The notes under the pieces were generated by a model. It was not told the DNA's origin and did no database searches. It saw only the letters and a list, made by a program, of their open reading frames with translations. A stretch of DNA of 64,000 bases from Fusobacteriota bacterium. Lineage in GTDB: Bacteria > Fusobacteriota > Fusobacteriia > Fusobacteriales > JBNJFI01. The stretch is from the NCBI GenBank assembly GCA_051746725.1, contig JBNJFI010000003.1, forward strand, positions 5,228 to 69,227, written 5' to 3'. Position numbers and translations under genes: made by a program. This document shows positions 259-58,932 of this stretch, piece after piece. How positions within the stretch are numbered: the first letter of the stretch is position 1; every line of letters begins with the position of its first letter.

Positions 259-1548
259 ATGAAAAATTATGATATTGTAGTTGTTGGTGGTGGGCCAGCA
301 GGCTTGGCAGCAGCTATAGAGGCAAAAAAAAATGGAGCAGATTCTATTTTAGTATTAGAACGAGATATAGAATTAGGCGGGATATTGCAACAGTGTATTC
401 ACAATGGTTTTGGATTACATATATTTAAAGAAGAGTTGACAGGTCCAGAATATGCAGAAAGATTTATAAATGAATTAAAAGAGATGAATATAAATTATAA
501 ATTAGATACAATGGTCCTATCGATAACAGAAAACAAAAAAGTTACAATTATGAACACAAAAGATGGTTTGTCAAATATAGAAGCTAAGGCTATTATTTTA
601 GCAATGGGGTGTCGAGAAAGAACAAGAGGGGCATTATCTATACCGGGATATAGGCCAGCAGGTGTTTTCACAGCTGGGACAGCCCAGCGTTTTATAAATA
701 TGGAAGGGTATATGACAGGCAAGAAGGTTGTGATACTTGGATCAGGAGATATTGGGCTTATCATGGCTAGACGGATGGCTCTAGAAGGAGCCGAAGTAAA
801 AGCAGTAGCTGAAATAATGCCTTTTTCAGGGGGATTAACTAGAAATATAGTTCAGTGTCTTCATGATTATGATATCCCATTATTATTAGAACATACAGTC
901 CAAGAAATAAAAGGGAAAAATAGAGTTGAAAGTGTTATAATTTCAAAGGTAGATAAAAAGAGAAACCCAATCCCTGGAACCCAAAAAGAATATGAATGCG
1001 ATACTCTTTTATTGTCAGTTGGATTAATTCCAGAAAATGAATTATCTTTAGAAGCTGGCATTAAATTGGATTCTAAAACATCTGGTCCCATTGTAAATGA
1101 ATCAATGGAAACTTCAGTAGAGGGAATATTTGCATGTGGGAATGTAGTTCATGTTCATGATCTAGTTGATTTTGTTACTCAAGAGAGTCAAAGAGCGGGA
1201 AAACATGCTGCACGATATGTAGCTGGAGAAATAACAGAAGATACCAGTATTACCAATACAATACCTGGAGCTGGAATCGGATATATAGTGCCGCATAAAT
1301 TGAGAATGGAAAATGTAGAAGAAAAATTAAATTTATTAATGAGAGTTGAAAATATTTATTCAGATACTAAAATATTGATAAAAGGTGATGGCGAAATTAT
1401 AAAGGAAGTCTTTAAAAAACATTTAGCTCCAGGAGAAATGGAAAGTATTATTTTAAGAAGAGAATTAATTGACAAAAAAGGATATAAAAATATCTCTGTA
1501 GAAGTGGAAAGTGAATTAGAAAATATAGACAAAAAAGAGGTGTTATAA
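259..1548 (+). CDS. NAD(P)/FAD-dependent oxidoreductase (pyridine nucleotide-disulfide family), partner of GlpA-like protein
   Basis: N-terminal GGGPAGLAAA Rossmann motif, second GSGDIGL motif, GIFACGNV; RBS AAGGAG. Confidence 0.85.
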   Translation: MKNYDIVVVGGGPAGLAAAIEAKKNGADSILVLERDIELGGILQQCIHNGFGLHIFKEELTGPEYAERFINELKEMNINYKLDTMVLSITENKKVTIMNTKDGLSNIEAKAIILAMGCRERTRGALSIPGYRPAGVFTAGTAQRFINMEGYMTGKKVVILGSGDIGLIMARRMALEGAEVKAVAEIMPFSGGLTRNIVQCLHDYDIPLLLEHTVQEIKGKNRVESVIISKVDKKRNPIPGTQKEYECDTLLLSVGLIPENELSLEAGIKLDSKTSGPIVNESMETSVEGIFACGNVVHVHDLVDFVTQESQRAGKHAARYVAGEITEDTSITNTIPGAGIGYIVPHKLRMENVEEKLNLLMRVENIYSDTKILIKGDGEIIKEVFKKHLAPGEMESIILRRELIDKKGYKNISVEVESELENIDKKEVL

Positions 1549-1927: not shown

Positions 1928-2010
1928 AATATATAAATTATACGTAAAGATTAGATATAAACTTATTATATGGAAAATTAATATAATAAAAGTTATACGA
2001 AACTAAGAAA

Positions 2011-2050
2011 AAAATGGAAGTCAAAAATTATAATTTTTGACTTCCATTTT
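2011..2050. terminator. Bidirectional intrinsic terminator (perfect 40-bp palindrome) between convergent genes
   Basis: AAAATGGAAGTCAAAAATTA|TAATTTTTGACTTCCATTTT is its own reverse complement; lies between stops at 1927 (+) and 2075 (-). Confidence 0.85.
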
Positions 2051-2074
2051 CAGTATCTATTTAATTTGCTCTAC

Positions 2075-2362
2075 TCATGCACTCACCTCGATACTATTTC
2101 CTTGTAAAAGATTAGTAGCGATAACAGTAGATGCAGATTTTGTGTATTGCTGTGTTTTTTCTAACTTTGTAGCAAGATTTTTGACTTGATCTTGTAAATT
2201 AAAATCAAGTTTACTTTTTCTCGCTTTTTTGGAATCACTTTTTTGAACTTCCACCTTACTTTTTATTACATCTGTCTCCTCTAACCTTTTTTGAGTCTGC
2301 GTTACATTAGTTTGATTACTAGCCAAGCTTGGTCTAGTAATACTTGCTTGAACTAACATCAT
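2075..2362 (-). CDS. Small hypothetical protein (~95 aa), candidate sigma28-regulon member with FlgM-like/YjfB-like features
   Basis: Only credible minus-strand gene; SD AAGGAAGGTGA just upstream of ATG at 2362; has its own promoter and a convergent terminator; low-complexity N-terminus; C-terminus VKNLATKLEK..Y..IATNLLQGNSIEVSA. Confidence 0.7.
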   Translation of the reverse strand: MMLVQASITRPSLASNQTNVTQTQKRLEETDVIKSKVEVQKSDSKKARKSKLDFNLQDQVKNLATKLEKTQQYTKSASTVIATNLLQGNSIEVSA

Positions 2363-2409
2363 AATCACCTTCCTTGGATTTTGTTATACAGTCCCTCCTT
2401 GGACTATAT
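2363..2409 (-). promoter_or_regulatory. Two GGA-loop hairpins in the 5' UTR (CsrA/RsmA-type binding sites)
   Basis: Minus strand: ATATAGTCC-AAGGAG-GGACTGTAT (9-bp stem, 2386-2409) and AATCC-AAGGAA-GGTGATT (bulged stem overlapping the SD, 2363-2380). Confidence 0.55.
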
Positions 2410-2424
2410 TCGATCATATAAAGA

Positions 2425-2451
2425 TTATCGTGAGAAAAGGGAAAAACTTTA
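2425..2451 (-). promoter_or_regulatory. sigma28 (FliA/SigD)-type promoter
   Basis: Minus strand TAAAGTTT-N11-CACGATAA versus consensus TAAAGTTT-N11-GCCGATAA (-35 8/8, -10 6/8, exact spacing). Confidence 0.7.
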
Positions 2452-2459
2452 ATTAAAAC

Positions 2460-2488
2460 TTTACATAAAACTGTAAATTTGATAAAAT
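2460..2488 (+). promoter_or_regulatory. sigma70-type promoter with extended -10 for moxR operon
   Basis: TTTACA-N17-TAAAAT with TG at 2480-2481. Confidence 0.55.
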
Positions 2489-2528
2489 TTAGTAGTAGAA
2501 AATTTAAGTGGGAGGTTTTAAAAATAAA

Positions 2529-3491
2529 ATGGAAGTAGAAGTAATTAATGATAAGGTGTCTAAGTATCAAGGAATGATTGATTTAATTAAAAAAGAAATT
2601 TCTAAAGCTGTAATTGGACAGGAATATATGATTGATCGTATTTTGATTGGTGCATTTACAGGAGGTCATTTATTAATTGAAGGAGTTCCTGGATTGGCAA
2701 AATCGTTAACAGTCAATACAATTTCGAAGGTTTTAAATGCAGAGTTTAAAAGAATTCAATTTACTCCAGATTTATTACCAGCTGACATATTAGGTACACA
2801 GATATATCATCAGAAAACAGGAGATTTTGTTACCAAAAAAGGGCCTCTTTTTAGTAATATTATTTTAGCAGATGAGATAAATAGAGCTCCAGCAAAGGTG
2901 CAGTCAGCTTTATTAGAAGCTATGCAGGAAAAGCAGATAACAATAGGTGATATTACTTACAAATTAAATTCACCTTTTTTGGTATTAGCTACCCAAAATC
3001 CACTGGAACAACAAGGGACTTATCCATTGCCAGAAGCTCAGCAAGATAGATTTATGTTAAAACTAAAAGTAGATTATCCATCTAGAAAAGAGGAAGAAGA
3101 TATTATAAACTTATTAACTGAAAATCAAGATGATAATGAAATTGCTAAAGTTTTAGATAAAGAAACAATATTTGAAATAAGAAAGTTAATAAAAAATATT
3201 TATGTAGATGATAAAATCAAAAAATATGTTTTAGATATAATTTTTAAGACTCGAGAAGATTCTCAGTATATAAATTGTGGAGCCTCTCCTAGAGCTTCTA
3301 TAAATTTAATAGTAGCGGCAAAGGGAAGAGCGTTTTTAGAAGGTAGAGGATATGTTACTCCAGATGATATTAAGGATATAGCATATGATGTATTAAGACA
3401 TAGAATATTACTAACTTATGAAGCTGAAGCAGAAGAAATAAATAAAGAAGAAATGATATCAAGAATATTAGAAGATGTTACTTCACCATAA
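2529..3491 (+). CDS. moxR: MoxR family AAA+ ATPase
   Basis: LIEGVPGLAKS Walker A, RIQFTPDLLPAD, LADEINRAPAK, ATQNP; start moved to ATG 2529 downstream of GGAGG. Confidence 0.93.
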   Translation: MEVEVINDKVSKYQGMIDLIKKEISKAVIGQEYMIDRILIGAFTGGHLLIEGVPGLAKSLTVNTISKVLNAEFKRIQFTPDLLPADILGTQIYHQKTGDFVTKKGPLFSNIILADEINRAPAKVQSALLEAMQEKQITIGDITYKLNSPFLVLATQNPLEQQGTYPLPEAQQDRFMLKLKVDYPSRKEEEDIINLLTENQDDNEIAKVLDKETIFEIRKLIKNIYVDDKIKKYVLDIIFKTREDSQYINCGASPRASINLIVAAKGRAFLEGRGYVTPDDIKDIAYDVLRHRILLTYEAEAEEINKEEMISRILEDVTSP

Positions 3492-3528
3492 ATTAATAAA
3501 ATAATTTTTTTTATAAAAGGGGAGTAAA

Positions 3529-4344
3529 ATGATTTCAAAAGATCTAATAAAAAAAATAAAGAAAATAGAAATAAAATCCAATAAAATAGCAAACACACTT
3601 TTTTCAGGGGAATATCATTCATATTTTAAAGGAAATGGAATGGAATTTGAAGATATAAGAGAATATTATCCAGGAGATGATATTAGAAATATCGATTGGA
3701 ATGTTACTGCAAGACAAGGCAAAGCATATGTAAAACAATATAAAGAGGAACGAGAATTAAATATGTTTTTGCTTGTGGATATATCTAGGTCAAACTTTTT
3801 TGGAAACAAGAAAGATATTATAGCCGAAATAGGCGCTACATTGTCATTTTCTGCCATGAAAAATAATGATAAAATTGGAAGTATTCTTTTTACAGATAAG
3901 ATAGATAAAATTATCCCTTCCAAAAAAGGGAAAAAGCATGTATTATCTATTATAGAAAATATTTTAGATTATAAATCAGAAAATAAAAAAACTGATATAC
4001 AAAATGCACTAGAATATTTTAACCGAATACAAAAAAAACGAAGCATTGTATTTTTAATATCTGACTTTTTAGATTCTGGATATGAAGACCAAATAAAGAT
4101 GATATCAAAAAAGCATGATTTAGTCTTAATTAGAATAATTGATAGAATGGAAGAAAAATTACCCAAAGGTGCTATATTTTCATTTGAAGATTTAGAAACA
4201 GGAGAAGAAATTACTATAGAAAATTTAAAAAAGGATAGAACCTTAAATATAAACAAGAATATTCCTTCTAAAAATTTGATAACTATATATACTGATGAAG
4301 ATTATATAAAACCATTAAAGCTCTTTTTTGAAAAGAGAATATAA
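3529..4344 (+). CDS. DUF58 domain protein (vWA-like, MoxR-associated)
   Basis: GxGMEFEDIREYYPGDDIRNIDWNVTAR, LLVDISRS, FLISDF. Confidence 0.92.
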   Translation: MISKDLIKKIKKIEIKSNKIANTLFSGEYHSYFKGNGMEFEDIREYYPGDDIRNIDWNVTARQGKAYVKQYKEERELNMFLLVDISRSNFFGNKKDIIAEIGATLSFSAMKNNDKIGSILFTDKIDKIIPSKKGKKHVLSIIENILDYKSENKKTDIQNALEYFNRIQKKRSIVFLISDFLDSGYEDQIKMISKKHDLVLIRIIDRMEEKLPKGAIFSFEDLETGEEITIENLKKDRTLNINKNIPSKNLITIYTDEDYIKPLKLFFEKRI

Positions 4345-4395
4345 ATCATAACAAATTAAATTAATAAATTTAATAATTTTAAAGAGGGGAAAACA

Positions 4396-5160
4396 ATGAA
4401 AAAAATAATAATAGCTTTATTTGTTTTAATCGGAATCACAATTTTTTCTCAAAAAATATATATTGGGGATTTAGTTAATTTAAGTATCGAAGGAAAAAAC
4501 ATAACTAAAAATCAAATAGAAGAAAAATTTAAGGGGTTTGAAATAGAAAAATTAGTCAAAAAAGATAATGGATATGAATTATCCATTAGAAGCTTTGAAA
4601 CAGGAACCCATAATATTTCAATTGGAAATACAGATCTTGAAATTATAGTTGAATCTGTTATAGAGGAAAAAGATAAATCAGATCCAAACAAAATATTAGA
4701 TGTTACAGAAAAAGGTCAAATAGAAATTGATCTTTTAAAATCACCTTTGCCAATAACCTATTTTTTAATAGGAATTGCCATTTTTATATTTATGATTATA
4801 ATACTAATTATATTAAAATTCTGTAAATCAAGGAAACACAATAGGGAATCTTCTTTCCAAAGATTTATAAATCAAATTAGAAATATTGAATCAGAGGAAT
4901 ATTTTTTTGAATTAACTAAAATATTTAAAGAGTACATATATAACAGATACAAAATAAAAATATCCGGGAAAACATCCAAAGAAATTTTAAAGGAAGTGCC
5001 TGGTCAGATTGACAAGGAAAAATTAAAAGCATGGCTTGATTTTGCAGATTTATGTAAATTCGGTGGATTAGTTCCCACTCCTGAGGAGAAAGAACTATAT
5101 AAAAATATGCTGGTAGAAATTATACAAAAATCAGAAGAGGAAATATTTGAGGTGGAATAA
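4396..5160 (+). CDS. Exported/membrane protein of the Bat locus (DUF4381/BatD-like)
   Basis: Signal peptide, internal TM helix, C-terminal ADLCKFGG..P motif; position between DUF58 and vWA gene. Confidence 0.6.
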   Translation: MKKIIIALFVLIGITIFSQKIYIGDLVNLSIEGKNITKNQIEEKFKGFEIEKLVKKDNGYELSIRSFETGTHNISIGNTDLEIIVESVIEEKDKSDPNKILDVTEKGQIEIDLLKSPLPITYFLIGIAIFIFMIIILIILKFCKSRKHNRESSFQRFINQIRNIESEEYFFELTKIFKEYIYNRYKIKISGKTSKEILKEVPGQIDKEKLKAWLDFADLCKFGGLVPTPEEKELYKNMLVEIIQKSEEEIFEVE

Positions 5161-6119
5161 TGTTTGAATTTGCTAATATATATTTTTTATTGTTAATACC
5201 AATAGCGTTATTTATTTTTTTAAGAAAAAGGAAAACAAATAATATAAAATTTTCAAGGATTTCTTTATTTAAAGATCAAAACATAAAAAAAACCATAAAA
5301 CATAAAATAGGGCCTTATATTATATTATTAGCTGTTATCTTGTTTATAATAGCTTTGGCTCGTCCAAGAATTTCAACTAAAAACCAAATCATAGAAAGAG
5401 ATGGACTTGATATAATAATAAGTATGGATATTTCTAGAAGTATGGAAGCTCAAGATTTTAAACCTAATCGTTTAGAGGCTGCAAAAAAGGTTGGTATAGA
5501 TTTTGTGGAAAAAAGAGAAAGTGATAGGATAGGTTTTGTTGTGTTTAGTGGAACAGCTTATACAAAGATACCGTTGACTTTAGATCATTTAGTATTAAAA
5601 GAAACTATATCTAGAGTTAATTTCAATGATGTTTCTAAAAGAGGGACTGCAATTGGAATGGGGATATCTGTTGCTTTAAATAGATTAAAGGATAGTAAGT
5701 CAAAATCTAAAGTGATAATTTTATTAACAGATGGAGAAAATAATACTGGGGAGATAAACCCCATAACCGCAATGAATTTAGCAAAAGAATTAGATGTAAA
5801 AATATATACTATTGGAGTTGGAGCTGAGACTATAACTCAAAATACTTTCTTCGGGAAACGTGAGGTTAAAAATACTGCCTTAGATGAAGAACTTTTAGAA
5901 AAAATATCTAGAGAAACTAAAGGTAAGTATTTTAGAGCAAAAGATTTAAAAAGTCTAGAAGAAATTTTTAATAATATTGATAAATTAGAAAAAACAAAAA
6001 TAGAGGATAAAAGTTTTTATAATTATAATGAGTTATATTACGTTCTAGTAAAAATTGGACTACTTTTATTAATTATAGGATTATTTTTTGAAAAAATATT
6101 ATTTTTAAAAATTCCATAA
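5160..6119 (+). CDS. batA: vWA domain membrane protein, BatA-like
   Basis: N-terminal LLLIP BatA-type TM segment, ALARP, MIDAS DISRS / GTAIG / LLTDGENN. Confidence 0.85.
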   Translation: MFEFANIYFLLLIPIALFIFLRKRKTNNIKFSRISLFKDQNIKKTIKHKIGPYIILLAVILFIIALARPRISTKNQIIERDGLDIIISMDISRSMEAQDFKPNRLEAAKKVGIDFVEKRESDRIGFVVFSGTAYTKIPLTLDHLVLKETISRVNFNDVSKRGTAIGMGISVALNRLKDSKSKSKVIILLTDGENNTGEINPITAMNLAKELDVKIYTIGVGAETITQNTFFGKREVKNTALDEELLEKISRETKGKYFRAKDLKSLEEIFNNIDKLEKTKIEDKSFYNYNELYYVLVKIGLLLLIIGLFFEKILFLKIP

Positions 6120-16501: not shown

Positions 16502-18685
16502 ATGGCAGTAATAAGAAAAGATGAATTAAATTCAATTTTAAATGCTAATACTAAAGATCCATTTCATTTTCTAGGATTAAGAAAAACTGAAAATGGAAAA
16601 TCTATAATTAGAGTTTGTCACCCAGGTGCAAAAAAGGTGGAAATAATCTCAGATGAATTAGACGGATATAGAGAAATAACTAAAATTCATAAAGATGGTT
16701 TTTTTGAAGAGCAGTTAGATGAAGATATATCAAAATATACACTACGATATACAAACTTTTTTGGGGATACATGGGAATCAAAGGATCCTTATTCTTTTTT
16801 GCCAGTTTTAACTGATTATGATATTCATTTATTTAGTGAAGGTAACCACCACAGGATTTATGAGAAAATGGGAGCACACATTATTGAACATGAAGGTATA
16901 ACAGGAGTACATTTTTCTATTTGGGCCCCTAATGCCCAGAGAGTAAGCGTAATAGGAGATTTTAACGCTTGGGATGGTAGAGTTCATCAAATGAGAATGC
17001 TTGGTTCCTCTGGAATTTGGGAGATATTTATTCCAGGAATTAAAGAAGGAGATAAATATAGATTTGAAATAAAATCTGTACAAGGAAATATCTTATTAAA
17101 ATCTGATCCATATGCTTTTTATTCAGAGGTAAGGCCTGCGAATGCTTCTATTGTTTATGACATAAATGAAAAACATGAATGGAATGATAAATTATGGATG
17201 AAAAATAGATCTCAAACTAATTGGTTGGAAGAACCTATCTCTACATATGAGGTACATTTAGGATCTTGGGCCAGAAAAGCAGGAAATGAATTTTTAACTT
17301 ACAAAGAAATGGCAGATAAATTAGTTAAATATGTTTCAGATAATAATTATACTCATATTGAGTTAATGCCAGTTGCAGAACATCCTTTGGATGAATCTTG
17401 GGGATATCAGGTTACAGGTTTTTTCTCTGTAAATAGTCGATTTGGAAAACCTGAAGAATTAATGTATCTGATAGATGAATTTCATAAACATAATATTGGA
17501 GTTATAATGGATTGGGTACCAGGGCATTTTCCAAAGGATCCCCATGGATTGGGAAGATTAGATGGAAGTGGTGTTTACGAACATGTAGATCCTAAACAAG
17601 GAGAGCATCCTGATTGGGGAACATATATATTTAATTATGGCCGAAATGAAGTTACTAACTTTTTAATAACAAATGCTCTATATTGGTTAGATAAGTTTCA
17701 CATTGATGGACTGCGAGTAGATGCAGTTGCATCTATGTTATATCTTGATTATAGTAAAGAAGAAGGTCAATGGGTACCAAATAAACATGGAGGAAGAGAA
17801 AACTTAGAAGCAATAGAATTTTTACAATATTTTAATTCTATTTCTCATAAATATTATCCAGGAATTTTAACAATTGCAGAAGAATCGACTTCTTTTAGTG
17901 GGGTTTCTCAGCCTACTTATTTAGGTGGATTAGGTTTTTCTATGAAATGGAATATGGGATGGATGAATGATTCTCTTGAATATATAAAGAAAGATCCGAT
18001 ATATAGAAAATATCATCAAGGTAGTTTAACTTTTTCACTTATATACGCATTTTCTGAAAATTTCAAATTAGTAATATCGCATGATGAAGTAGTTCATGGA
18101 AAAGGTTCAATGTTAGATAAAATGCCAGGGGATAATTGGCAAAAATTTGCAAACTTAAGATTATTTTATTCATATATGTATGCACATCCAGGGAAAAAGT
18201 TGTTATTTATGGGTGGTGAATTTGGACAATGGAAAGAATGGACTTGTAAAAATAGTCTAGATTGGCATTTATTAGAATATGAACCACATCGAAAGCTTTT
18301 GGATTTTACTAGAGATCTAAATGGATTATATAAAAATGAAGAAGCTTTATATGAAGTTGATTTTGATGGAAAGGGATTTGAATGGATTGACTTTACAGAT
18401 AGTGATAATAGCATAATATCTTTTATTAGAAAATCAAAAGATGAAAGTGAAATAATAGTATGTGTATTTAATTTTACTCCTATGACACATGAAAACTATC
18501 GAATAGGTGTAAATAAACCAGGTTTTTATGAAGAAATTTTTAATTCGGATTCGCAGAGGTATTGGGGAAGCAATTTTGGAAATTATGGAGGATTGTGGAG
18601 TGAAGATCTTCCGTGGCAAGGAAAGCAACATTCATTAAAAATTAATATTCCTCCATTATCAGGAGTGTATTTTAAATTAAAATAA
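16502..18685 (+). CDS. glgB: 1,4-alpha-glucan branching enzyme (GH13)
   Basis: WAPNAQRVSV, YEVHLGSW, SWGYQVTG, GLRVDAVASMLY, IAEEST, SHDEVVHGK. Confidence 0.97.
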   Translation: MAVIRKDELNSILNANTKDPFHFLGLRKTENGKSIIRVCHPGAKKVEIISDELDGYREITKIHKDGFFEEQLDEDISKYTLRYTNFFGDTWESKDPYSFLPVLTDYDIHLFSEGNHHRIYEKMGAHIIEHEGITGVHFSIWAPNAQRVSVIGDFNAWDGRVHQMRMLGSSGIWEIFIPGIKEGDKYRFEIKSVQGNILLKSDPYAFYSEVRPANASIVYDINEKHEWNDKLWMKNRSQTNWLEEPISTYEVHLGSWARKAGNEFLTYKEMADKLVKYVSDNNYTHIELMPVAEHPLDESWGYQVTGFFSVNSRFGKPEELMYLIDEFHKHNIGVIMDWVPGHFPKDPHGLGRLDGSGVYEHVDPKQGEHPDWGTYIFNYGRNEVTNFLITNALYWLDKFHIDGLRVDAVASMLYLDYSKEEGQWVPNKHGGRENLEAIEFLQYFNSISHKYYPGILTIAEESTSFSGVSQPTYLGGLGFSMKWNMGWMNDSLEYIKKDPIYRKYHQGSLTFSLIYAFSENFKLVISHDEVVHGKGSMLDKMPGDNWQKFANLRLFYSYMYAHPGKKLLFMGGEFGQWKEWTCKNSLDWHLLEYEPHRKLLDFTRDLNGLYKNEEALYEVDFDGKGFEWIDFTDSDNSIISFIRKSKDESEIIVCVFNFTPMTHENYRIGVNKPGFYEEIFNSDSQRYWGSNFGNYGGLWSEDLPWQGKQHSLKINIPPLSGVYFKLK

Positions 18686-48226: not shown

Positions 48227-48640
48227 ATGAAACTTTTTAATAATAATATAACAGCTTTGGAAAAAAGTTTAGATGCATATTCTAAAAGATCAGACTTATT
48301 AGCAAATAATATAGCAAACGTAAATACTCCTAATTACAAAAGACAGGATATTCAATTTGAGAATATATTAAGTGATGCCATTTCTTCTGATGAAGGAGCC
48401 ACTATTTCGGGAAATGTAACTCAAAAAGGACATATTTCTATAAATCCAGAAACAAATTTAGAAAATGTTAAACCAAAATTAATTACAGAGCAAAACACAA
48501 AGATGCGAAATGATAAAAATAACGTAGATATTGAAAAAGAGCAGGCAGAATTTGCAAAGAATAATATCCGATATAAATTTGCAACAGGAAGATTAACTCA
48601 GGAATTTAGAATATTAAATACAGTAATTAAAACTAAATAA
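48227..48640 (+). CDS. flgB: Flagellar basal-body rod protein FlgB
   Basis: LANNIANVNTPNYKRQD, RNDKNNVDIEKE. Confidence 0.95.
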   Translation: MKLFNNNITALEKSLDAYSKRSDLLANNIANVNTPNYKRQDIQFENILSDAISSDEGATISGNVTQKGHISINPETNLENVKPKLITEQNTKMRNDKNNVDIEKEQAEFAKNNIRYKFATGRLTQEFRILNTVIKTK

Positions 48641-48665
48641 TTCTTTTGAAAAGGTGGTGATCTAA

Positions 48666-49109
48666 GTGGGAGTTTTTGATATGATGAATATAAGCTCATC
48701 AGGTTTAACTGCAGAAAGATTGAGAATGGATGTAATATCTGAGAATATTGCAAATGCTGATACCACAGTGACAGAAAGTGGAGAACCTTATAGAAAAAAA
48801 AATGTGGTTTTTGAGCAAAGAACTAAAAAAAGTTTTCAAATTCCAATGAATGATAATTCTTCTAAGGAAATGCAAGTAGGAAATGGTGTTCGAGTAAAAA
48901 AAATAGTTGAGGACAAGTCTCCTTTCAAAAAAGAATACAATCCAGGACATCCCAATGCAAATGAAGATGGATATGTAATGAAACCGAATGTTAGTGTAGT
49001 AAAAGAAATGACTGATATGATTACAGCTAGTAGAGCTTATGAAGCAAATGTAACAGTATTAAATAATGCAAAGGGAATGGCTAACGCGGCTTTGAATATA
49101 GGTAAATAA
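48666..49109 (+). CDS. flgC: Flagellar basal-body rod protein FlgC
   Basis: SGLTAERLRMDVISENIANADT, YNPGHPNA..GYV..PNV, ASRAYEAN. Confidence 0.96.
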   Translation: MGVFDMMNISSSGLTAERLRMDVISENIANADTTVTESGEPYRKKNVVFEQRTKKSFQIPMNDNSSKEMQVGNGVRVKKIVEDKSPFKKEYNPGHPNANEDGYVMKPNVSVVKEMTDMITASRAYEANVTVLNNAKGMANAALNIGK

Positions 49110-49150
49110 ATAATAATAGGTTTTATAAAAAGTAGGGGGGATAAGATCTA

Positions 49151-49441
49151 ATGAAGATAAACAACCTTGGAATTCAGGACCTAGTAAAATTAAATCAAAA
49201 AAAGAACGTTAAAAAAAATGATGAAAATTTTGGTGATATTTTAAATAATGAATTAGAAAGTGCTAATAATTTGAAAAAATCGGCAAATAAGGCCAATCAA
49301 GCATTTCTAACTGGAAAATCTAATAACTTACATGAAGTGATGATTGCAGGGCAGAAAGCTGAAACCGCAATCTCTTTTGTGGTTGAAGTAAAAAATAGAA
49401 TTGTAGATGCATATAAGGAATTTGCAAGAATGCAAGTTTAA
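49151..49441 (+). CDS. fliE: Flagellar hook-basal body protein FliE
   Basis: LHEVMIA.QKA......EVKNRIVDAYKEF.RMQV. Confidence 0.93.
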   Translation: MKINNLGIQDLVKLNQKKNVKKNDENFGDILNNELESANNLKKSANKANQAFLTGKSNNLHEVMIAGQKAETAISFVVEVKNRIVDAYKEFARMQV

Positions 49442-49455
49442 TTTGGAGGAGTTAA

Positions 49456-51051
49456 ATGGAATGGTTTGAGAAGATAAAAAAAAGTTTTTTAGAAATATGG
49501 AATAAACTAAATAAAGCTCAAAAGATCATAATTTCTGCTGGGGTAGGATTATTTTTAATTTTTGTAATTATTTTATCTATAGCTTCTAACCGAGTAAATT
49601 ATGTTCCTTTGTTTACAGAATTAACAGCACAAGATGCAGCTAAAGTAAGGGAAAATTTGGATAAATCAGGGATACCATATAAATTTTCTGGTTCAACAAT
49701 TGAAGTTCCAGAGGAGCAGAAATATTCGGCAAGACTGGACTTAGCTAGAGATGGTGCTCTGCCTACAGGGGGAAGTGTAGGATTTGAAATTTTTGATAAT
49801 ACTAAAATAGGAGCTACAAAATTTGATAAAGAGATGATGTTTTTGCGGGCTCAAAAAGGAGAACTAGAAAAAACTATATCTAATTTGAGTAAAATAAAGC
49901 GAACTTCTGTGACAATAACACCTTCCAATGGATCAGTTTTTGCAGAAGAAAAGACTGATGCTAAAGCATCGATTTTAGTTCAATTAGAACCATTTGAATC
50001 TTTGAAACCTGAGAACGTTAAAAGTATTATGTTATTGGCTTTAAGTGCAGTTGAAGATCTTCATACAGATAATATAGAGGTTATTGATACAGAAGGAAAT
50101 GTTTTATCTGATCAGGTTGAGTTTGAAGAAGATAGCAGTGTTGAAGCTTCTAATAAAAAGTTAGATTTACAAAAAAATATAGAAAAAGAGTTAGAAAGAA
50201 ATATCAAAGGAGTTTTAAGTGCTCTTGGTGGTGGGAATTATAGGGTGAAAGTTTCAGCAGAACTGGATTTTGATAAACAATCTATGGTCAAAGAAGAATA
50301 TACTACCCCTACTATATCTGGAGATCAAATAGCTCAAGGTTTAATTCGGAGTCAACAGGTTGAAAAAGAGGAAGTTAGAAGTGATACAGATGAGAATTCT
50401 CAAGGAGTTCCTGGGACTGATTCCAATGTCCCTGGGTATGTAGGTGAAGATTCTGAAGATGGAGAAAACGGATACTCTAAAGAAAAAAACACAGTAAACT
50501 ATGAGATGAATAAAACTAACACAACTTTTGAAAAATCAACAGGTGTCATAAAAAGATTAACAACCTCAATAGTTTTAAACAAAAAAGCAAATTATTTTAA
50601 TAATAGCGAATTTACTGAGGAAGTAAAAGTAAATTTTGAAAATATGGTAAAAAATGCAATAAATTTTAATGAAAATAGAGGAGATTCAATTAATGTTACA
50701 GCTATAGAATTTAATACTGAAACAATAGATAGATTTCAAGAAGAGATTGAAAGTAGAGAAAAATTACAACAAAGGATATTGCTTGGTGTAGTTATAATAA
50801 TTGGGTTAGCTGTTTTATTTGGATTAATTACATTTATTAGAAGAAAAATTGCTGAAAAGAAATTAAGAGAAAGAGAGAAACGTGAAATGGAAGAGATGAT
50901 TCCAGACTTTGAAACAGAAGGAATATTAGGCGAACAGTTATCCGTTGAAGAGCAAGAACGAAAAGAACAAGAAGAAGGTATAAAAGGATTAGCAAAAAAA
51001 CAACCAGAAGATGTTGCTAATTTAATACAAACGTGGTTGACTGAAGAATAA
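49456..51051 (+). CDS. fliF: Flagellar MS-ring protein FliF
   Basis: Two TM segments; GSVGFEIFD, GELEKTI, VPG..SNVPGY, NYE, RGDSINV, WLTE. Confidence 0.93.
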   Translation: MEWFEKIKKSFLEIWNKLNKAQKIIISAGVGLFLIFVIILSIASNRVNYVPLFTELTAQDAAKVRENLDKSGIPYKFSGSTIEVPEEQKYSARLDLARDGALPTGGSVGFEIFDNTKIGATKFDKEMMFLRAQKGELEKTISNLSKIKRTSVTITPSNGSVFAEEKTDAKASILVQLEPFESLKPENVKSIMLLALSAVEDLHTDNIEVIDTEGNVLSDQVEFEEDSSVEASNKKLDLQKNIEKELERNIKGVLSALGGGNYRVKVSAELDFDKQSMVKEEYTTPTISGDQIAQGLIRSQQVEKEEVRSDTDENSQGVPGTDSNVPGYVGEDSEDGENGYSKEKNTVNYEMNKTNTTFEKSTGVIKRLTTSIVLNKKANYFNNSEFTEEVKVNFENMVKNAINFNENRGDSINVTAIEFNTETIDRFQEEIESREKLQQRILLGVVIIIGLAVLFGLITFIRRKIAEKKLREREKREMEEMIPDFETEGILGEQLSVEEQERKEQEEGIKGLAKKQPEDVANLIQTWLTEE

Positions 51052-51068
51052 GGAAATGGAGTGAAATT

Positions 51069-52082
51069 ATGGCAAAAAAGAATGATACTCTAACAGGAAA
51101 ACAAAAATCCGCAATATTATTGATATCATTAGGTCAGGATATTGCTTCTGAAGTTTTTAAACACTTAGAGGAAGATCAAATAGAACAATTAACATTAGAA
51201 ATTGCAAGATTACATAAAATTGACTCTGAAACAAAAGATAAAGTTTTTGAAGAATTTAATGAATTAATGGTTGCTCAACAATATATTTCTCAAGGTGGAA
51301 TAAGTTATGCTAAAGATATTTTAGAAAAAGCCATGGGAGAAGATAGAGCTTTAAGTGTAATAAAAAAATTAACTAGTTCTCTTCAAGTTAAACCATTTGA
51401 TTTTATTCAAAGAACCGAATCAAGACAGATTTTAAACTTTATATCTGGAGAACATCCGCAAACAATTGCTCTGATAATTTCTTATCTATCAGCTGAAAAG
51501 GCTGCTCAGATAATATCGGAAATACCTGAGGATAAACAATCTGAAATTGCTAAAAGGATTGCATTAATGGATAGAACTTCTCCCGAAATGATCCGTGAAG
51601 TGGAAAGAGTATTGGAAAGAAAAATTTCATCTATTGCTGGAGAAGATTATACTTCAACAGGTGGCTTAGAATCAGTTGTTGATATATTGAATAATGTAGA
51701 TAGAGGAACGGAAAAAACTATTTTGGAATCTCTAGAAGATCAAGAGCCAGAATTAGCAGAAGAAATCAAAAAACAGATGTTTGTATTTGAAGATATCACT
51801 TTATTGGATGATCCTGGAATTCAACTTGTATTACGTAAGGTAGAAAATAAAGATCTTTCGCTAGCTCTTAAAGGCTCTAGTGAGGAAGTTAAAGAAAAAA
51901 TACTTGCAAATATGTCCAAGAATGCGTCTGAAAGGCTTAGAGATGACATGGAATATATGGGTCCTGTGAGAGTTAAAGATGTAGAAGAAGCTCAACAAAA
52001 AATTGTAAATTCTATCAGAAAATTAGAAGATCAGGGTGAAATCGTTATTGCAAGAGGAAATGAGGATGAGATGATTGTTTAA
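51069..52082 (+). CDS. fliG: Flagellar motor switch protein FliG
   Basis: LTGKQKSAILL, GGISYA, EHPQTIA, MFVFED, MGPVRVKDVEEAQQ. Confidence 0.97.
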   Translation: MAKKNDTLTGKQKSAILLISLGQDIASEVFKHLEEDQIEQLTLEIARLHKIDSETKDKVFEEFNELMVAQQYISQGGISYAKDILEKAMGEDRALSVIKKLTSSLQVKPFDFIQRTESRQILNFISGEHPQTIALIISYLSAEKAAQIISEIPEDKQSEIAKRIALMDRTSPEMIREVERVLERKISSIAGEDYTSTGGLESVVDILNNVDRGTEKTILESLEDQEPELAEEIKKQMFVFEDITLLDDPGIQLVLRKVENKDLSLALKGSSEEVKEKILANMSKNASERLRDDMEYMGPVRVKDVEEAQQKIVNSIRKLEDQGEIVIARGNEDEMIV

Positions 52083-52890
52083 TGTAATTAAAGGGGAACT
52101 TGTAAAAACATCAGATCCTGTAATGATAAAAAATGGTAAAAAACAAGAAGTTGATAAAGAGAAAAATGATAGAGAAAAAGAAAAAACAATAGATAAACTA
52201 CAAAGGAAAATAGAAAAAAAAGAAAAAGAGTTAAAGGAAAAGTCAAAAAAGCTTTCAGAAATAGAAAAACAAATTTCTAATAAAACACAAGAAAATCAAA
52301 AAAAAGCTCAGCAAATATTAGATGATGCCCAAGAAAAAATTAAGTATGAAAAAGAGGTCAATCAAAAAAGGGGATATCAAGATGGATATCAAGAAGGAAT
52401 AAAAAAAGGAGAAGAAGAAGTAATAGAAAAGGGACAACAATTATTTATCCGCGCTCAATCTATAATAGATGAAGCGCTAAATATAAAGAAAAAGGTTTTA
52501 GAAGATAACAGTAAAGACATTTTAGAACTGGCACTAAAAATTGCAAAAAAGATAATAAAAAAAGAAGTAGAAAAAGATCGAGATATAGTTCAAAGGAATT
52601 TAGATGAAGCTATAAAGAAAATCCCTATAAGTAAAAAAATAACTATAATTTTAAATTGGGAAGATTTAGAGTATATTAAAGAAATCAAAGATGATTTGAT
52701 TTCTAAGATACAAGGAGTAGATGAAATTGATATCACAGAGGATCCATCTTTAAATAAAGGAGGCTGCATTTTGGAAACGAGCATTGGGACTATTGATGCT
52801 TCAATTAATTCTCAAATGGAAATTTTATATAATAAATTATTAAATATAGAAAAAAATGAAAATAAGAAAACTGAGGATGGAAGTGAATAA
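52075..52890 (+). CDS. fliH: Flagellar assembly protein FliH
   Basis: GYQDGYQEGIKKG repeats, GGCILETSIGTIDAS; position between fliG and fliI. Confidence 0.9.
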   Translation: MFNVIKGELVKTSDPVMIKNGKKQEVDKEKNDREKEKTIDKLQRKIEKKEKELKEKSKKLSEIEKQISNKTQENQKKAQQILDDAQEKIKYEKEVNQKRGYQDGYQEGIKKGEEEVIEKGQQLFIRAQSIIDEALNIKKKVLEDNSKDILELALKIAKKIIKKEVEKDRDIVQRNLDEAIKKIPISKKITIILNWEDLEYIKEIKDDLISKIQGVDEIDITEDPSLNKGGCILETSIGTIDASINSQMEILYNKLLNIEKNENKKTEDGSE

Positions 52891-52893
52891 TAC

Positions 52894-54207
52894 TTGGATA
52901 TTACAAAATATATTAAGGCTATTGAAGAGATAGATACAATTCATATGAATGGAAAAGTTGTAAGAGTCATAGGATTAATAATAGAATCAGAAGGACCAAT
53001 AGTGAAACTTGGAGAACATTGTTATATTAAAATGTTAAATAAAGATGAACATATTGATGCTGAAGTAGTTGGGTTTAGCTCGGACAAAATATTACTTATG
53101 CCACTGGGAGAAATGACCGGTATAGGTCACGGGTGTGAAGTCGTAGCTACAGGAAAACAACTTCAGATACCAGTTAGTGAAAAATTACTAGGAAGAGTGC
53201 TAGATGGTTTAGGTAGACCTATAGATAGCAAAGGACAAATAATGACATCTGATACTGCAAAATTGGAAAGCCCTCCTCCTAATCCTTTGGATAGAGATAG
53301 AATTTCTAAACCATTATCGATAGGAGTAAAAGCTATTGATGGATTATTAACCTGTGGAAAAGGTCAAAGATTAGGTATTTTTGCAGGAAGTGGTGTTGGA
53401 AAAAGTACATTACTTGGGATGATTGCAAGAAATAGCTCGGCAGATATAAATGTAATAGGATTGATTGGAGAGAGAGGCCGAGAAGTGCGTGAGTTTATTG
53501 AAAAAGATTTAGGAGAAGAAGGATTAAAAAAATCAGTAGTGGTAGTAGCGACTTCCGATCAGCCTGCATTAGTGAGATTAAAGGGAGCTTTAACAGCAAC
53601 TGCAATTGCGGAGTATTTTAGAGATCAAGGAAAAGATGTTATGCTAATGATGGATTCACTAACAAGATTTGCAATGGCACAGAGAGAAGTGGGGCTTGCT
53701 ACAGGAGAGCCTCCAACAACTAAAGGTTATACTCCATCGGTATTTGCTTTACTTCCTAAGTTACTAGAAAGGAGCGGAAATTCTGATAAGGGAACTATTA
53801 CTGGATTATATACTGTTTTAGTGGAAGGTGATGATATGGATGAGCCTATTGCTGATGCTGTTAGAGGTATTTTAGATGGACATATTGTTTTATCAAGAAA
53901 GTTAGCTTCAAAAGGACACTATCCTGCTATAGATGTATTAGAAAGTGTTTCTAGAGTCATGCCACAGATAATATCAGATGAACATTTAAAAAATTCTCAA
54001 CAAATACGAGAAATATTAGCTAATTATGATGAAGTTGAGGATCTTTTGAATATAGGAGCTTATCAAAAAGGGAATAATCCCAAGGCAGATTATGCTGTTG
54101 AAAATATTGGAAAAGTAAAGAATTTTTTAACTCAAGATGTAATGAAAAAAACTGAATTAAATGATACAGAGGATAAGATGAATAAATTATTAAAAAAAGA
54201 GGAGTAG
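52894..54207 (+). CDS. fliI: Flagellar export ATPase FliI
   Basis: GIFAGSGVGKSTLLGM, LIGERGREV, MDSLTRFAMAQREV, LDGHIVLSR. Confidence 0.97.
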   Translation: MDITKYIKAIEEIDTIHMNGKVVRVIGLIIESEGPIVKLGEHCYIKMLNKDEHIDAEVVGFSSDKILLMPLGEMTGIGHGCEVVATGKQLQIPVSEKLLGRVLDGLGRPIDSKGQIMTSDTAKLESPPPNPLDRDRISKPLSIGVKAIDGLLTCGKGQRLGIFAGSGVGKSTLLGMIARNSSADINVIGLIGERGREVREFIEKDLGEEGLKKSVVVVATSDQPALVRLKGALTATAIAEYFRDQGKDVMLMMDSLTRFAMAQREVGLATGEPPTTKGYTPSVFALLPKLLERSGNSDKGTITGLYTVLVEGDDMDEPIADAVRGILDGHIVLSRKLASKGHYPAIDVLESVSRVMPQIISDEHLKNSQQIREILANYDEVEDLLNIGAYQKGNNPKADYAVENIGKVKNFLTQDVMKKTELNDTEDKMNKLLKKEE

Positions 54208-57893: not shown

Positions 57894-57912
57894 TTAGGAG
57901 GAATTCATAATA

Positions 57913-58932
57913 ATGAAAAGAAATTTAGCACTTGAATTTGCTAGAGTTACAGAAGTTGCAGCTTTAGCCTCGGAGCAATGGATTGGGCGTGGAGATAAAG
58001 AAAGTGCAGACCAAGCAGCTGTAAATGCTATGAGGTCAATGCTCAATAAAATTGATGTCGATGGAAAAGTTGTAATTGGTGAAGGAGAAATTGATGAAGC
58101 TCCTATGTTATTTATAGGAGAAGAGGTGGGAAAAAAAGGTGCTAAAACTAAAATAGATATCGCTGTTGATCCTATTGAAGGGACTAAAATGACAGCAAAA
58201 GGACAGCCAAATGCATTGGCTGTTATGGCAGTTGCAAATCGAGGAAGTTTTTTAGAGGCTCCTGATATGTATATGGAAAAATTAATAGTTGGTTCAAATG
58301 CTAGAGGAGCTATAGATTTAAATTTACCATTAGAGGATAATATAAATAATATTTCAAAAAAAATAGGAAAAGATCTCAGAGATATGTCTGTTGTTATTTT
58401 AGATAAACCGAGACATTCACAAGTTATAAGAGATCTACAAAATATGGGGTTAAAAGTTATGGCATTTACCGATGGAGATGTTGCTGGATCTATATTAGCT
58501 GCTTTAGAGACCTCGGATGTAGATCTCTTATATGGGATTGGAGGAGCTCCTGAAGGCGTCATTTCTGCAGCTGCAATGCGTGCTCTTGATGGCGATATGC
58601 AGGCCAGGTTAAAGACTCGTAGTGAAGTCAAAGGGATATCTTTAGAAAATGATAAGATATCTAATACAGAAATTTCTAGATGCAAAGATATGGGAATTGA
58701 AGTAAATAAAGTTTTGAAACTAGATGACTTAGTTAAAGATGAGCAAGTTGTTTTTGTAGCTACTGGAATAACCAATGGAGATTTATTAAAAGGAATGAAG
58801 AAAAGTGGAGATATAATAACAACGTATTCACTACTAATACGAGGGAAAACACGTACAGTTAGATATATAAAATCAAAACATAATATAAAGCACAAGCCTG
58901 AAGAAACAAAAAAATGTATAATTGGAGGATAG
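57913..58932 (+). CDS. glpX: Class II fructose-1,6-bisphosphatase
   Basis: RVTEVAAL, VIGEGEIDEAPML, DPIEGT, DGDV, GGAPEGV, ATGITNGDLL. Confidence 0.97.
   Translation: MKRNLALEFARVTEVAALASEQWIGRGDKESADQAAVNAMRSMLNKIDVDGKVVIGEGEIDEAPMLFIGEEVGKKGAKTKIDIAVDPIEGTKMTAKGQPNALAVMAVANRGSFLEAPDMYMEKLIVGSNARGAIDLNLPLEDNINNISKKIGKDLRDMSVVILDKPRHSQVIRDLQNMGLKVMAFTDGDVAGSILAALETSDVDLLYGIGGAPEGVISAAAMRALDGDMQARLKTRSEVKGISLENDKISNTEISRCKDMGIEVNKVLKLDDLVKDEQVVFVATGITNGDLLKGMKKSGDIITTYSLLIRGKTRTVRYIKSKHNIKHKPEETKKCIIGG

What the first reader, a model, noticed from the sequence alone, without database searches (positions are those of the whole stretch)
2075..2451. Lone antisense-oriented orphan gene with a sigma28 promoter: candidate divergent FlgM or YjfB-like flagellar late protein
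Seen: this is the only credible minus-strand gene in 64 kb. It has a promoter TAAAGTTT-N11-CACGATAA, a good SD, its own terminator, no signal peptide, and a disordered-looking Q/T/S/K-rich N-terminus. Known: TAAAGTTT-N11-GCCGATAA is the FliA consensus. FlgM is ~95 aa with an unfolded N-terminus and a C-terminal V..L...I..G.Y....IA..LL pattern, and YjfB-type motility proteins end in G..ID..A. Inference: the C-terminus QVKNLATKLEKTQQYTKSASTVIATNLL-QGNSIEVSA loosely fits both (the FlgM Gly is missing). It may be an unrecognised anti-sigma or exported flagellar late protein, 46 kb from the basal-body operon.
Basis: partly seen in the sequence, partly recalled or inferred. Interest (0 to 1): 0.8.

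Follow-up and report, generated by a model that had tools for sequence, protein, structure and literature searches.

The report
New sigma-28/CsrA-controlled small flagellar gene
This lone minus-strand gene is real and founds a tiny, unannotated protein family found only in the rare flagellated Fusobacteria; it appears to be switched on like flagellin (a FliA/sigma-28 promoter plus CsrA binding sites), but it is not a detectable FlgM, YjfB or FlaG.

Summary
Window 2362..2075 (-) encodes a 95-aa protein. It has an exact TAAAGTTT-N11-CACGATAA motif (2451..2425), a strong SD and its own terminator (2051..2010). It is the only credible minus-strand gene in the window.

I found 8 homologues, making 9 members at 7 independent loci. 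Among 121 genomes of the order the gene occurs only in flagellated ones: the window's genome, Haliovirga abyssi, G004 and G119. Every locus keeps a sigma-28-type promoter while the flanking DNA and neighbouring genes differ. Five of the seven also keep a flagellin-style leader, with one CANGGANG in a hairpin loop and a second over the SD. The genome's own flagellin genes have the same design.

The genome encodes fliA, fliW and csrA. It also has a canonical flgM-flgN-flgK cluster, and flgM, fliD and a rod gene carry the same promoter motif.

Homology to FlgM, YjfB, FlaG or flagellin is not supported (Pfam, hhalign probability 0.5% or less, scores no better than shuffles). AlphaFold gives a disordered N-terminal ~55 residues and a C-terminal helix-turn-helix.

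Best reading: a new late flagellar gene, FliA-transcribed and CsrA/FliW-gated. Its product is probably an exported regulator or substrate. The regulation is well supported; the biochemical role is inferred.

The parts
2444..2451 (-). sigma-28 (FliA) -35 element TAAAGTTT. A second TAAAGTTT copy lies 13 nt upstream at 2457..2464 without a -10 partner.
   Evidence: The -35 element is kept with 0-2 mismatches at all 7 homologous loci.
2425..2432 (-). sigma-28 -10 element CACGATAA. The CGATA core is invariant across the homologues, and the spacer here is 11 nt.
   Evidence: The same motif precedes flgM, fliD, a flgF/G-like rod gene and the flagellin region in this genome.
2363..2419 (-). Predicted 5' UTR of about 55 nt. 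The TSS is inferred at about 2417-2419 and has not been mapped.
   Evidence: Inference from the position of the -10 element. RNA fold (z = -2.25).
2386..2409 (-). Leader hairpin 1: a 9-bp stem with hexaloop AAGGAG (GGA at 2398..2396), which reads CANGGANG together with its closing C-G pair. Candidate CsrA site 1.
   Evidence: The hairpin is kept, with changed stem pairs (GTCC/GGAC versus GCTC/GAGC), in L016, L021, G002 and G119.
2368..2378 (-). UCCAAGGAAGG: the second CANGGANG motif, overlapping the Shine-Dalgarno (GGA at 2373..2371), 25 nt after the first GGA. Candidate CsrA site 2.
   Evidence: AATCCAAGGA(A/G)GG is the same in four leaders (G000, L016, L021, G002), and G119 has GTCCAAGGAGGG. 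The same design is found on the genome's own flagellin genes.
2075..2362 (-). CDS of 95 aa plus stop. Residues 1-55 are predicted disordered. Helix 56-71, turn YTK, helix 75-87, tail ..IEVSA.
2010..2051 (-). Intrinsic terminator: 19-pair stem and a T-run. It lies between the orphan and the convergent DUF1667 gene.

Best explanation
The gene encodes the founding member of a small, previously unrecognised protein family, confined to the few flagellated lineages of Fusobacteriales. It belongs to the late (class III) flagellar regulon.

Proposed mechanism:
1. After the hook-basal body is complete and FlgM has been exported, free FliA (sigma-28) transcribes the gene as a monocistronic mRNA from TAAAGTTT-N11-CACGATAA.
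2. A CsrA dimer bridges two CANGGANG sites in the ~55-nt leader, one in a hairpin loop and one over the SD, and blocks ribosome binding.
3. When flagellin is being exported, FliW is free to bind CsrA and translation is released. The protein is therefore made in step with flagellin.
4. The product is a basic protein of about 90 aa, with a disordered N-terminal half and a conserved C-terminal amphipathic helix-turn-helix (Q-I-x-x-L-A-x-x-I-E-x-x-Q-x-Y-T-K-x-A-S-x-x-I-A-x-x-L-L). It most likely acts by binding a partner in the late export/regulation circuit (FliA, FliS, FliW or the FlhA docking platform). It may itself be exported through the flagellar type III system, as FlgM and FlaG are.

What is shown: the promoter and leader anatomy, their conservation, the phyletic restriction, and the presence of fliA, fliW, csrA and flgM.

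What is inferred: actual FliA and CsrA dependence, export, and the binding partner.

The confidence of 0.6 is a blend. I put about 0.8 on the regulatory reading (a FliA-dependent late flagellar gene, CsrA-gated in most lineages) and about 0.4 on the exported or partner-binding role of the protein.
For: Promoter:
- It is an exact match, and one of 5 such sites in the genome.
- All 7 independent loci keep it although the flanks and neighbouring genes differ. The sites are: G002 TAAAGTTT-N11-TCCGATAT; L016 TAAAGTGT-N11-TACGATAA; L021 TAAAGTTT-N12-TTCGATAT; L020 TACAGTTA-N11-TTCGATAA; G004 TAAAGTTT-N11-TACGATAA; G119 TAAAGTTT-N11-TCCGATAA.
- The motif is validated within this genome. It precedes flgM, fliD, a flgF/G-like rod gene and the csrA-flagellin junction.
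- fliA is present at 274 bits.

Leader:
- A GGA hexaloop hairpin plus a GGA over the SD is found in 5 of 7 loci, with stem covariation.
- The same design sits on the genome's own flagellin genes at C21:16845 and 17866.
- csrA (91 bits) and fliW (141 bits) lie between flgL and the flagellins.
- The design matches the C. jejuni flaA leader: two ANGGA loops, the second over the RBS, 21-nt spacing. CsrA also binds the flaG leader there (PMC4894983).

Phyletic pattern:
- fliA occurs in 4 of 121 genomes of the order.
- The family occurs in 4 of 121 (G000, G002, G004, G119), all of which have flagellins.
- Only 6 true protein clusters, the window's own included, turned up across the searches of 5.8 and 1.84 billion sequences.

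Protein:
- Coding constraint is shown.
- AF2 gives a disordered N-terminus plus helices 56-71 and 75-87, with pLDDT 73-89 in the helical blocks.
Against:
- Two lineages (G004, L020) lack the dual-GGA leader, so CsrA control is not universal in the family.
- G119 has the gene and the promoter but no FliA above cut-off in a 93%-complete assembly.
- The flagellated G007 (85% complete) shows no homologue.
- The gene is never linked to flagellar genes, except for an MCP gene downstream in L020.
- There is no detectable similarity to any characterised flagellar protein, so the molecular role is conjecture.
- The N-terminal resemblance to flagellin export regions is not above shuffles.
Confidence: 0.6

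Rival explanations
1. It is a very divergent FlgM paralogue: a second anti-sigma-28 factor that binds FliA through its C-terminal helices and is exported to relieve inhibition.
For: - Size, basic pI and build are the same as FlgM: about 90-100 aa, a disordered N-terminus and C-terminal helices.
- It is sigma-28-driven, as flgM is in this genome.
- The best hhalign path lines up QI..LA..iE..Q.Y...AS..IA..LL with kV..ik..i..G.Y.vd...VA..iL at the extreme C-termini of both families.
- The G119 member has the Gly (EIGLY).
Against: - hhalign probability is 0.3-0.5%.
- A FlgM HMM run with --max scores family members no better than shuffled sequences, and the reverse test gives the same result.
- No member hits PF04316.
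- The alignment needs two indels, and the invariant FlgM Gly is absent in 8 of 9 members.
- The model has only two helices spanning 32 residues (56-87), against three C-terminal helices spanning 57 residues (44-100) in the FlgM model.
- Every flagellated relative already has a canonical FlgM.
Confidence: 0.2
2. It is a functional analogue of FlaG: a small protein co-expressed with flagellin and secreted by the fT3SS, which competes with FliS-flagellin at FlhA and so limits filament length.
For: - No FlaG (PF03646) above cut-off is found in this 97%-complete genome.
- fliD has its own sigma-28 promoter with no flaG upstream.
- In C. jejuni, FlaG is sigma-28-dependent, is secreted, and acts at FlhA (PMC11536152). 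Its leader is bound by CsrA (PMC4894983).
- The orphan is regulated like flagellin.
Against: - There is no sequence similarity to FlaG.
- Many flagellates lack FlaG without any replacement (my own knowledge).
- The structured part is much smaller than the 101-position FlaG profile.
- There are no interaction data.
Confidence: 0.15
3. The main product is the RNA. A sigma-28-driven transcript with two high-affinity CsrA sites would titrate CsrA away from flagellin mRNAs, as the flaA leader does in C. jejuni. The ORF would then be secondary.
For: - Both sites match CANGGANG, and the 25-nt spacing suits a CsrA dimer.
- Titration by an mRNA has a precedent (PMC4894983).
- A second small sigma-28/dual-GGA transcript exists at C8 in the same genome.
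Against: - The C-terminal 35 residues are conserved at protein level, with most changes at the third codon position.
- G004 and L020 keep the promoter and the protein but not the GGA pair, so the protein is the conserved element.
Confidence: 0.07
4. It is a chance AT-rich promoter look-alike in front of a lineage-specific gene unrelated to motility.
For: - The genome is 28% G+C, so TAAAGTTT-like words are common. In 11% of window shuffles there is a match with up to 1 mismatch.
- Exact motifs also precede a NUDIX gene and other non-flagellar genes.
- The gene's neighbours are non-flagellar.
Against: - The motif is kept at 7 of 7 loci while the surrounding sequence is not.
- The relaxed motif occurs only 35 times on both strands of the genome. 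That is about 1e-3 expected per 150-nt upstream region (my arithmetic).
- The gene occurs only in flagellated genomes.
Confidence: 0.03

Closest known systems
FlgM (anti-sigma-28 factor, PF04316)
   Same: About 95 aa and basic, with a disordered N-terminal half and C-terminal amphipathic helices. Driven by a sigma-28 promoter. The C-terminal pattern hydrophobic-x2-L-x3-I-x3-x-Y-...-IA-x2-LL is loosely shared.
   Different: No significant profile or HMM similarity. Two helices instead of three or four. The invariant Gly is missing in 8 of 9 members. A canonical flgM coexists in every genome. The CsrA-type leader is not a known FlgM feature (my own knowledge).
Flagellin genes hag/flaA as CsrA-FliW targets (B. 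subtilis, C. jejuni; PMC6529632, PMC4894983)
   Same: A sigma-28/SigD promoter plus a short leader with two GGA sites, one in a hairpin loop and one over the SD. fliW and csrA are encoded in the genome. The layout is the same as on this genome's own flagellin genes.
   Different: The product is a 95-aa protein that is mostly disordered, not a flagellin (hhalign probability 0.1%).
FlaG (PF03646)
   Same: A small late flagellar protein co-expressed with flagellin. In C. jejuni it is secreted, and its mRNA is bound by CsrA.
   Different: No sequence similarity. FlaG normally sits in the flaG-fliD-fliS operon (my own knowledge), whereas this gene is solitary.
YjfB (PF14070), a small B. subtilis motility-associated protein reported as SigD-dependent (my own knowledge)
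   Same: A small, solitary gene dependent on the flagellar sigma factor, of unknown function. The C-terminal tail resembles G-x-x-I-(D/E)-x-x-A.
   Different: No hit to PF14070, either for any member or in the six-frame genome search. This family is longer and has a different conserved core (YTKxAS).

Membership tests
FlgM (PF04316) | Significant match to the FlgM profile | tested here: not met
   No hit at E<=10 for any of the 8 members scanned. hhalign probability 0.3-0.5%. hmmsearch --max scores are no better than shuffles.
FlgM (PF04316) | C-terminal sigma-28-binding region of 3-4 helices with a conserved I-x-x-G-x-Y turn | tested here: not met
   The AF2 model has two helices (56-71, 75-87). 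The FlgM model has helices at 44-64, 70-81 and 89-100. Gly is present only in the G119 member.
FlgM (PF04316) | Binds FliA and is exported by the fT3SS | not testable with these tools
   Complex prediction and experiments were not available.
YjfB (PF14070) | Significant match to the YjfB_motility profile | tested here: not met
   (no member hits). (no six-frame match in the genome at E<=10).
FlaG (PF03646) | Significant match to the FlaG profile | tested here: not met
   (no member hits). (best genome match 14 bits, inside a 444-aa ORF elsewhere).
FliA/sigma-28 (class III) regulon | TAAA(GTTT)-N11-(GC)CGATAA promoter at a suitable distance upstream of the start codon | tested here: met
   The exact motif ends 62 nt before the ATG. 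It is conserved at all 7 loci.
FliA/sigma-28 (class III) regulon | fliA is present, and the motif is used by known late genes in the same genome | tested here: met
   fliA at 274 bits. The motif precedes flgM, fliD, a rod gene and the flagellin region.
FliA/sigma-28 (class III) regulon | A FliA-dependent transcription start site | not testable with these tools
CsrA-repressed mRNA of the hag/flaA type | Two GGA motifs, one in a hairpin loop and one overlapping the SD, about 18-25 nt apart | tested here: met
   a 9-bp stem, AAGGAG hexaloop, second GGA in the SD, 25-nt spacing. Kept in 5 of 7 loci with changed stem pairs.
CsrA-repressed mRNA of the hag/flaA type | csrA and its antagonist fliW are encoded in the genome | tested here: met
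CsrA-repressed mRNA of the hag/flaA type | CsrA binds the leader and represses translation | not testable with these tools
   Needs EMSA, toeprinting or reporter assays.

The most novel reading that the evidence does not exclude
The family is a new kind of late-checkpoint protein. It would be exported by the fT3SS and would bind a partner (an anti-sigma-28 or an FlhA/FliS gatekeeper), without homology to FlgM or FlaG. Its synthesis would be locked to flagellin export by the CsrA-FliW switch. That would give these diderm Fusobacteria a second feedback layer on filament assembly, in place of the missing FlaG.
Probability: 0.3. Interest if true: 0.7.

Novelty: new variant of a known kind. Interest (0 to 1): 0.52.

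Why it matters
To my knowledge, flagella in Fusobacteriota are almost unstudied; the well-known genera are non-motile. Only about 4% of the sampled genomes of the order carry fliA.

This gene is a conserved, lineage-specific addition to an otherwise Firmicute/Thermotoga-like flagellar regulon. In the surveyed leaders of this genome, the only genes sharing the flagellin control logic (sigma-28 plus a dual CsrA site) are the flagellins, this gene and one other small ORF.

If it proves to be an exported regulator, it would be a new family of flagellar checkpoint proteins. It would also be a non-flagellin protein gated by the CsrA-FliW switch.

Haliovirga abyssi has a homologue and, to my knowledge, is cultured, so the idea can be tested directly. 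On a practical level, the family shows that conserved promoter and leader signatures can pull functional small orphan genes out of MAGs.

Tried and rejected
1. Pfam and NCBIfam scans of the protein, and Pfam scans of 8 members. Only noise came back: DUF3450, and a Prp19 coiled coil at E = 0.006.
2. A PDB sequence-profile search. The best hit was the Prp19 coiled coil at E = 0.045, judged to be chance.
3. Foldseek of the AF2 model against PDB. Nothing scored below E = 2.5, and a two-helix hairpin is uninformative anyway.
4. hhalign against the genome's own FlgM, against 4 fusobacterial FlgMs and against 22 FlgMs. Probability was 0.5% or less. HMM-versus-shuffle tests in both directions were negative.
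5. hhalign against flagellin, testing whether the C-terminus mimics the flagellin D0 helix. Probability was 0.1%.
6. By eye, the N-terminus resembles the flagellin N-terminus (MIINHNISAxNSYRNL against MYIANNISTNQNHYNNF). An HMM of 14 flagellin N-termini scored family members no better than composition-matched shuffles, so I rejected this as evidence for an export signal.
7. The phmmer hits P0002 and P0004 (over 1600 aa, repeat proteins) are compositional false positives.
8. The search for related loci in genome contigs found nothing.
9. Order-wide hits at E of about 0.006-0.009 lie inside large ORFs or contain stop codons, so I treated them as noise.
11. The neighbourhood is not conserved. Flanking genes differ at every locus (MoxR/DUF58 here, a SufC-like gene in G002, chorismate synthase in L016, an MCP in L020), so gene context gave no functional clue.

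Full report
**1. The observation**

- On the minus strand of window 2075..2368 there is an open frame. The GTG at 2368 overlaps the Shine-Dalgarno, so the likely start is the ATG at 2362. That gives MMLVQASITRP...NLLQGNSIEVSA, 95 aa.
- With up to one mismatch this is the only match in the window, against 0.12 expected from shuffles.
- The exact form TAAAGTTT-N11-NNCGATAA occurs only five times on both strands of the 2.18-Mb, 28% G+C genome.
- A 19-pair terminator with a T-run follows at 2051..2010.
- The other long minus-strand ORFs are shadows of plus-strand genes or sit inside one (glpX, uridine kinase, DUF58). This is therefore the only credible minus-strand gene in the window.
- The basal-body operon flgB-flgC-fliE-fliF-fliG-...-fliI is at 48227..54207.

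**2. A real gene with a tiny family**

- A word-based search of 5.8 billion proteins found only the query itself.
- An exhaustive phmmer search of 1.84 billion representatives added three true relatives of 87-105 aa, plus two repeat-protein artefacts.
- A profile search added two more relatives.
- Six-frame genome searches found unannotated copies in G002, G004 and G119.
- G002 is Haliovirga abyssi. Its FlgM carries that name and sits on a contig of the same length as G002:C1.
- The nine members share an invariant L, Y and A, and the block Q-I/V-x-x-L-A-x-x-I/L-E-x-x-Q-x-Y-T-K-x-A-S-x-x-I/V-A-x-x-L-L-x-G-x-I-E-x-x-A. Their N-terminal halves are variable.
- Over the conserved block, pairwise DNA differences fall 236/146/337 on codon positions 1/2/3. 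This shows selection on the protein.

**3. Promoter conservation**

All seven independent loci carry a sigma-28-type promoter, with the -10 element ending 35-104 nt upstream of the start codon (distances; the 104 nt for L021 is counted):

| Locus | Promoter |
|---|---|
| Window (G000) | TAAAGTTT-N11-CACGATAA |
| G002 | TAAAGTTT-N11-TCCGATAT |
| L016 | TAAAGTGT-N11-TACGATAA |
| L021 | TAAAGTTT-N12-TTCGATAT |
| L020 | TACAGTTA-N11-TTCGATAA |
| G004 | TAAAGTTT-N11-TACGATAA |
| G119 | TAAAGTTT-N11-TCCGATAA |

- In the DNA alignment, the columns of TA.AGT and CGATA are invariant while the spacer and flanks are not.
- Gene neighbourhoods differ at every locus. The motif therefore travels with the gene.
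- A relaxed form of the motif occurs 35 times on both strands of the genome. By my arithmetic that is about 1e-3 expected per 150-nt upstream region.

**4. The motif is meaningful in this genome**

- fliA is present at 274 bits.
- Sites with spacer 11 and no more than one mismatch lie in front of:
  - flgM (C21:11272);
  - fliD (C21:20947);
  - a flgF/G-like rod gene (C14:5505);
  - the region directly after csrA, ahead of the four tandem flagellin genes (C21:16341).
  
- Some exact sites precede non-flagellar genes: a NUDIX hydrolase, a secreted protein without a Pfam hit, and a HEAT-like protein. The motif alone is therefore not proof.

**5. A flagellin-style leader**

- The predicted 55-nt leader folds with z = -2.25. 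It forms a 9-bp hairpin whose hexaloop is AAGGAG, closed by a C-G pair (2409..2386).
- A second CAAGGAAG overlaps the SD (2378..2368). The two GGA triplets are 25 nt apart.
- AATCCAAGGA(A/G)GG is the same in four leaders (G000, L016, L021, G002); G119 has GTCCAAGGAGGG.
- The hairpin is kept with changed pairs: GTCC/GGAC in the window and L016, GCTC/GAGC in L021, and a related stem in G002. G119 has a shifted 7-bp stem around AGGAG.
- A genome-wide scan looked for (C/T)AAGGA(A/G)G SDs preceded by A-N-GGA and gave 22 hits. Those with a CAAGGA-type SD include two flagellin genes, a flagellin-family gene, the orphan and one 45-aa ORF at C8. That ORF also has a sigma-28-like promoter.
- csrA and fliW lie between flgL and the flagellins.
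- This is the architecture shown experimentally for C. jejuni flaA: two ANGGA loops, the second over the RBS, 21-nt spacing, CANGGANG-like hexaloops. CsrA also binds the flaG leader there (PMC4894983). The FliW-CsrA-flagellin switch of B. subtilis is described in PMC6529632.
- G004 and L020 lack the GGA pair, so this layer is not universal in the family.

**6. Phyletic pattern**

- Of 121 genomes sampled across the order, fliA is present in four: G000, G002, G004 and G007.
- The family is also in four: G000, G002, G004 and G119.
- G119 has eight flagellin matches, so it is flagellated. No FliA was found in its 93%-complete assembly.
- G007 (85% complete, 530 contigs) has fliA, flgM and flagellins but no detected homologue.
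- No non-flagellated genome has a credible hit.

**7. What the protein is not**

- A canonical flgM (57 bits), followed by flgN and flgK and preceded by a Zn-ribbon ORF that I did not scan against any library, lies on contig C21. G002, G004 and G007 have one too.
- No family member hits PF04316, PF14070 or PF03646.
- hhalign against FlgM alignments of 1, 4 and 22 sequences gives probability 0.3-0.5%. It sits at the C-terminus of both families and needs two 1-residue gaps.
- HMM scores in both directions are within the range of shuffled sequences.
- Similarity to flagellin, at either the C-terminus or the N-terminus, is not above chance.
- PDB sequence and fold searches gave nothing.

**8. Structure**

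- AlphaFold2 with the family alignment predicts residues 1-55 without structure, helix 56-71, a YTK turn, helix 75-87 and a short tail. The block-mean pLDDT is 73-89 over residues 51-90, and the overall mean is 63.
- The genome's FlgM modelled the same way gives three C-terminal helices (44-64, 70-81, 89-100).
- The two proteins share a general build (basic, about 95-100 aa, a floppy N-terminus and a helical C-terminus). The orphan's folded part is about half the size.

**9. Interpretation**

- The regulatory reading is well supported by comparative evidence: a late gene transcribed by FliA, and in most lineages gated by CsrA-FliW together with flagellin.
- The biochemical role is inferred. 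A small, disordered protein with a conserved amphipathic hairpin, made only while flagellin is being exported, is most simply a partner-binding regulator or an exported substrate of the late flagellar circuit.
- No FlaG is detectable in the genome. FlaG is secreted, sigma-28-dependent and acts at FlhA (PMC11536152). A FlaG-like role is therefore as plausible as a FlgM-like one.
- A pure RNA-sponge role is unlikely, because the protein is the conserved element where the GGA sites are missing.

**10. Verdict**

- The proposed identity as a divergent FlgM or YjfB is not supported.
- This is a new, very narrowly distributed family within a known regulatory scheme.
- It is moderately interesting, and testable in Haliovirga abyssi.

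Noticed in passing
own genome, contig C8 about 880-1100 (+), outside the window: A 45-aa ORF (MGKTNIKKEIEEMIIKYTKCEQDSF...) has TAAAGAAA-N11-AACGATAA upstream. Its leader has the hairpin GATGT-AAAGGATG-ACATC plus a TCAAGGAGGA SD. This is the same sigma-28 plus dual-GGA design as the flagellins and the orphan. It has no Pfam hit.
   Followed up: partly
own genome, contig C21:16341-16845 (+), outside the window: Two sigma-28-like promoters follow csrA, at 16341 and about 16476. Between them and the first flagellin start (16845) lie roughly 350-480 nt containing a strong terminator-like hairpin (about 16640-16700). This could be a small RNA or an attenuator ahead of the four tandem flagellin genes.
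   Followed up: no
own genome, C4:15791(-), C86:6751(-), C94:4141(-): Exact or near-exact sigma-28 motifs precede three non-flagellar genes. These are a 341-aa signal-peptide protein with no Pfam hit, a NUDIX hydrolase (with GCCGATAA) and a 730-aa HEAT-like repeat protein. They may be extra FliA regulon members or chance sites.
   Followed up: partly
own genome (whole), and C21:23029-23634: No FlaG (PF03646) above cut-off is found in the 97%-complete genome. fliD is followed by a 201-aa acidic ORF without any Pfam hit, where fliS or fliT would be expected. I did not search for FliS.
   Followed up: partly
G119 (L037 1495-1713, minus; contigs C17, C26): A genome in family f2, whose other sampled members lack fliA, has 8 flagellin matches and the orphan homologue with a perfect sigma-28 promoter. 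No FliA above cut-off was found in its 93%-complete assembly.
   Followed up: partly
window 2457-2464 (-): A second TAAAGTTT copy lies 13 nt upstream of the promoter's -35 element (gTAAAGTTTtaatTAAAGTTT), without a matching -10. A sigma-70-like promoter for the divergent MoxR gene (TTTACA-17-TAAAAT, plus strand 2460..2488) partly overlaps this upstream copy and lies back to back with the orphan's promoter.
   Followed up: no
window 57894-58895 (-): A 333-aa antisense ORF lies entirely opposite glpX (57913..58932 +, 443 bits to FBPase_glpX). It has no Pfam hit and is a shadow ORF.
   Followed up: yes
window 2508-6119 (+): The divergent neighbour begins with a MoxR AAA+ ATPase gene (2508..3491) and a DUF58/VWA gene (3529..4344), both confirmed by Pfam. 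By eye, the ORFs that follow up to 6119 look like a Bat-type (BatA-like) operon; I did not scan them. None of this is related to the orphan.
   Followed up: partly
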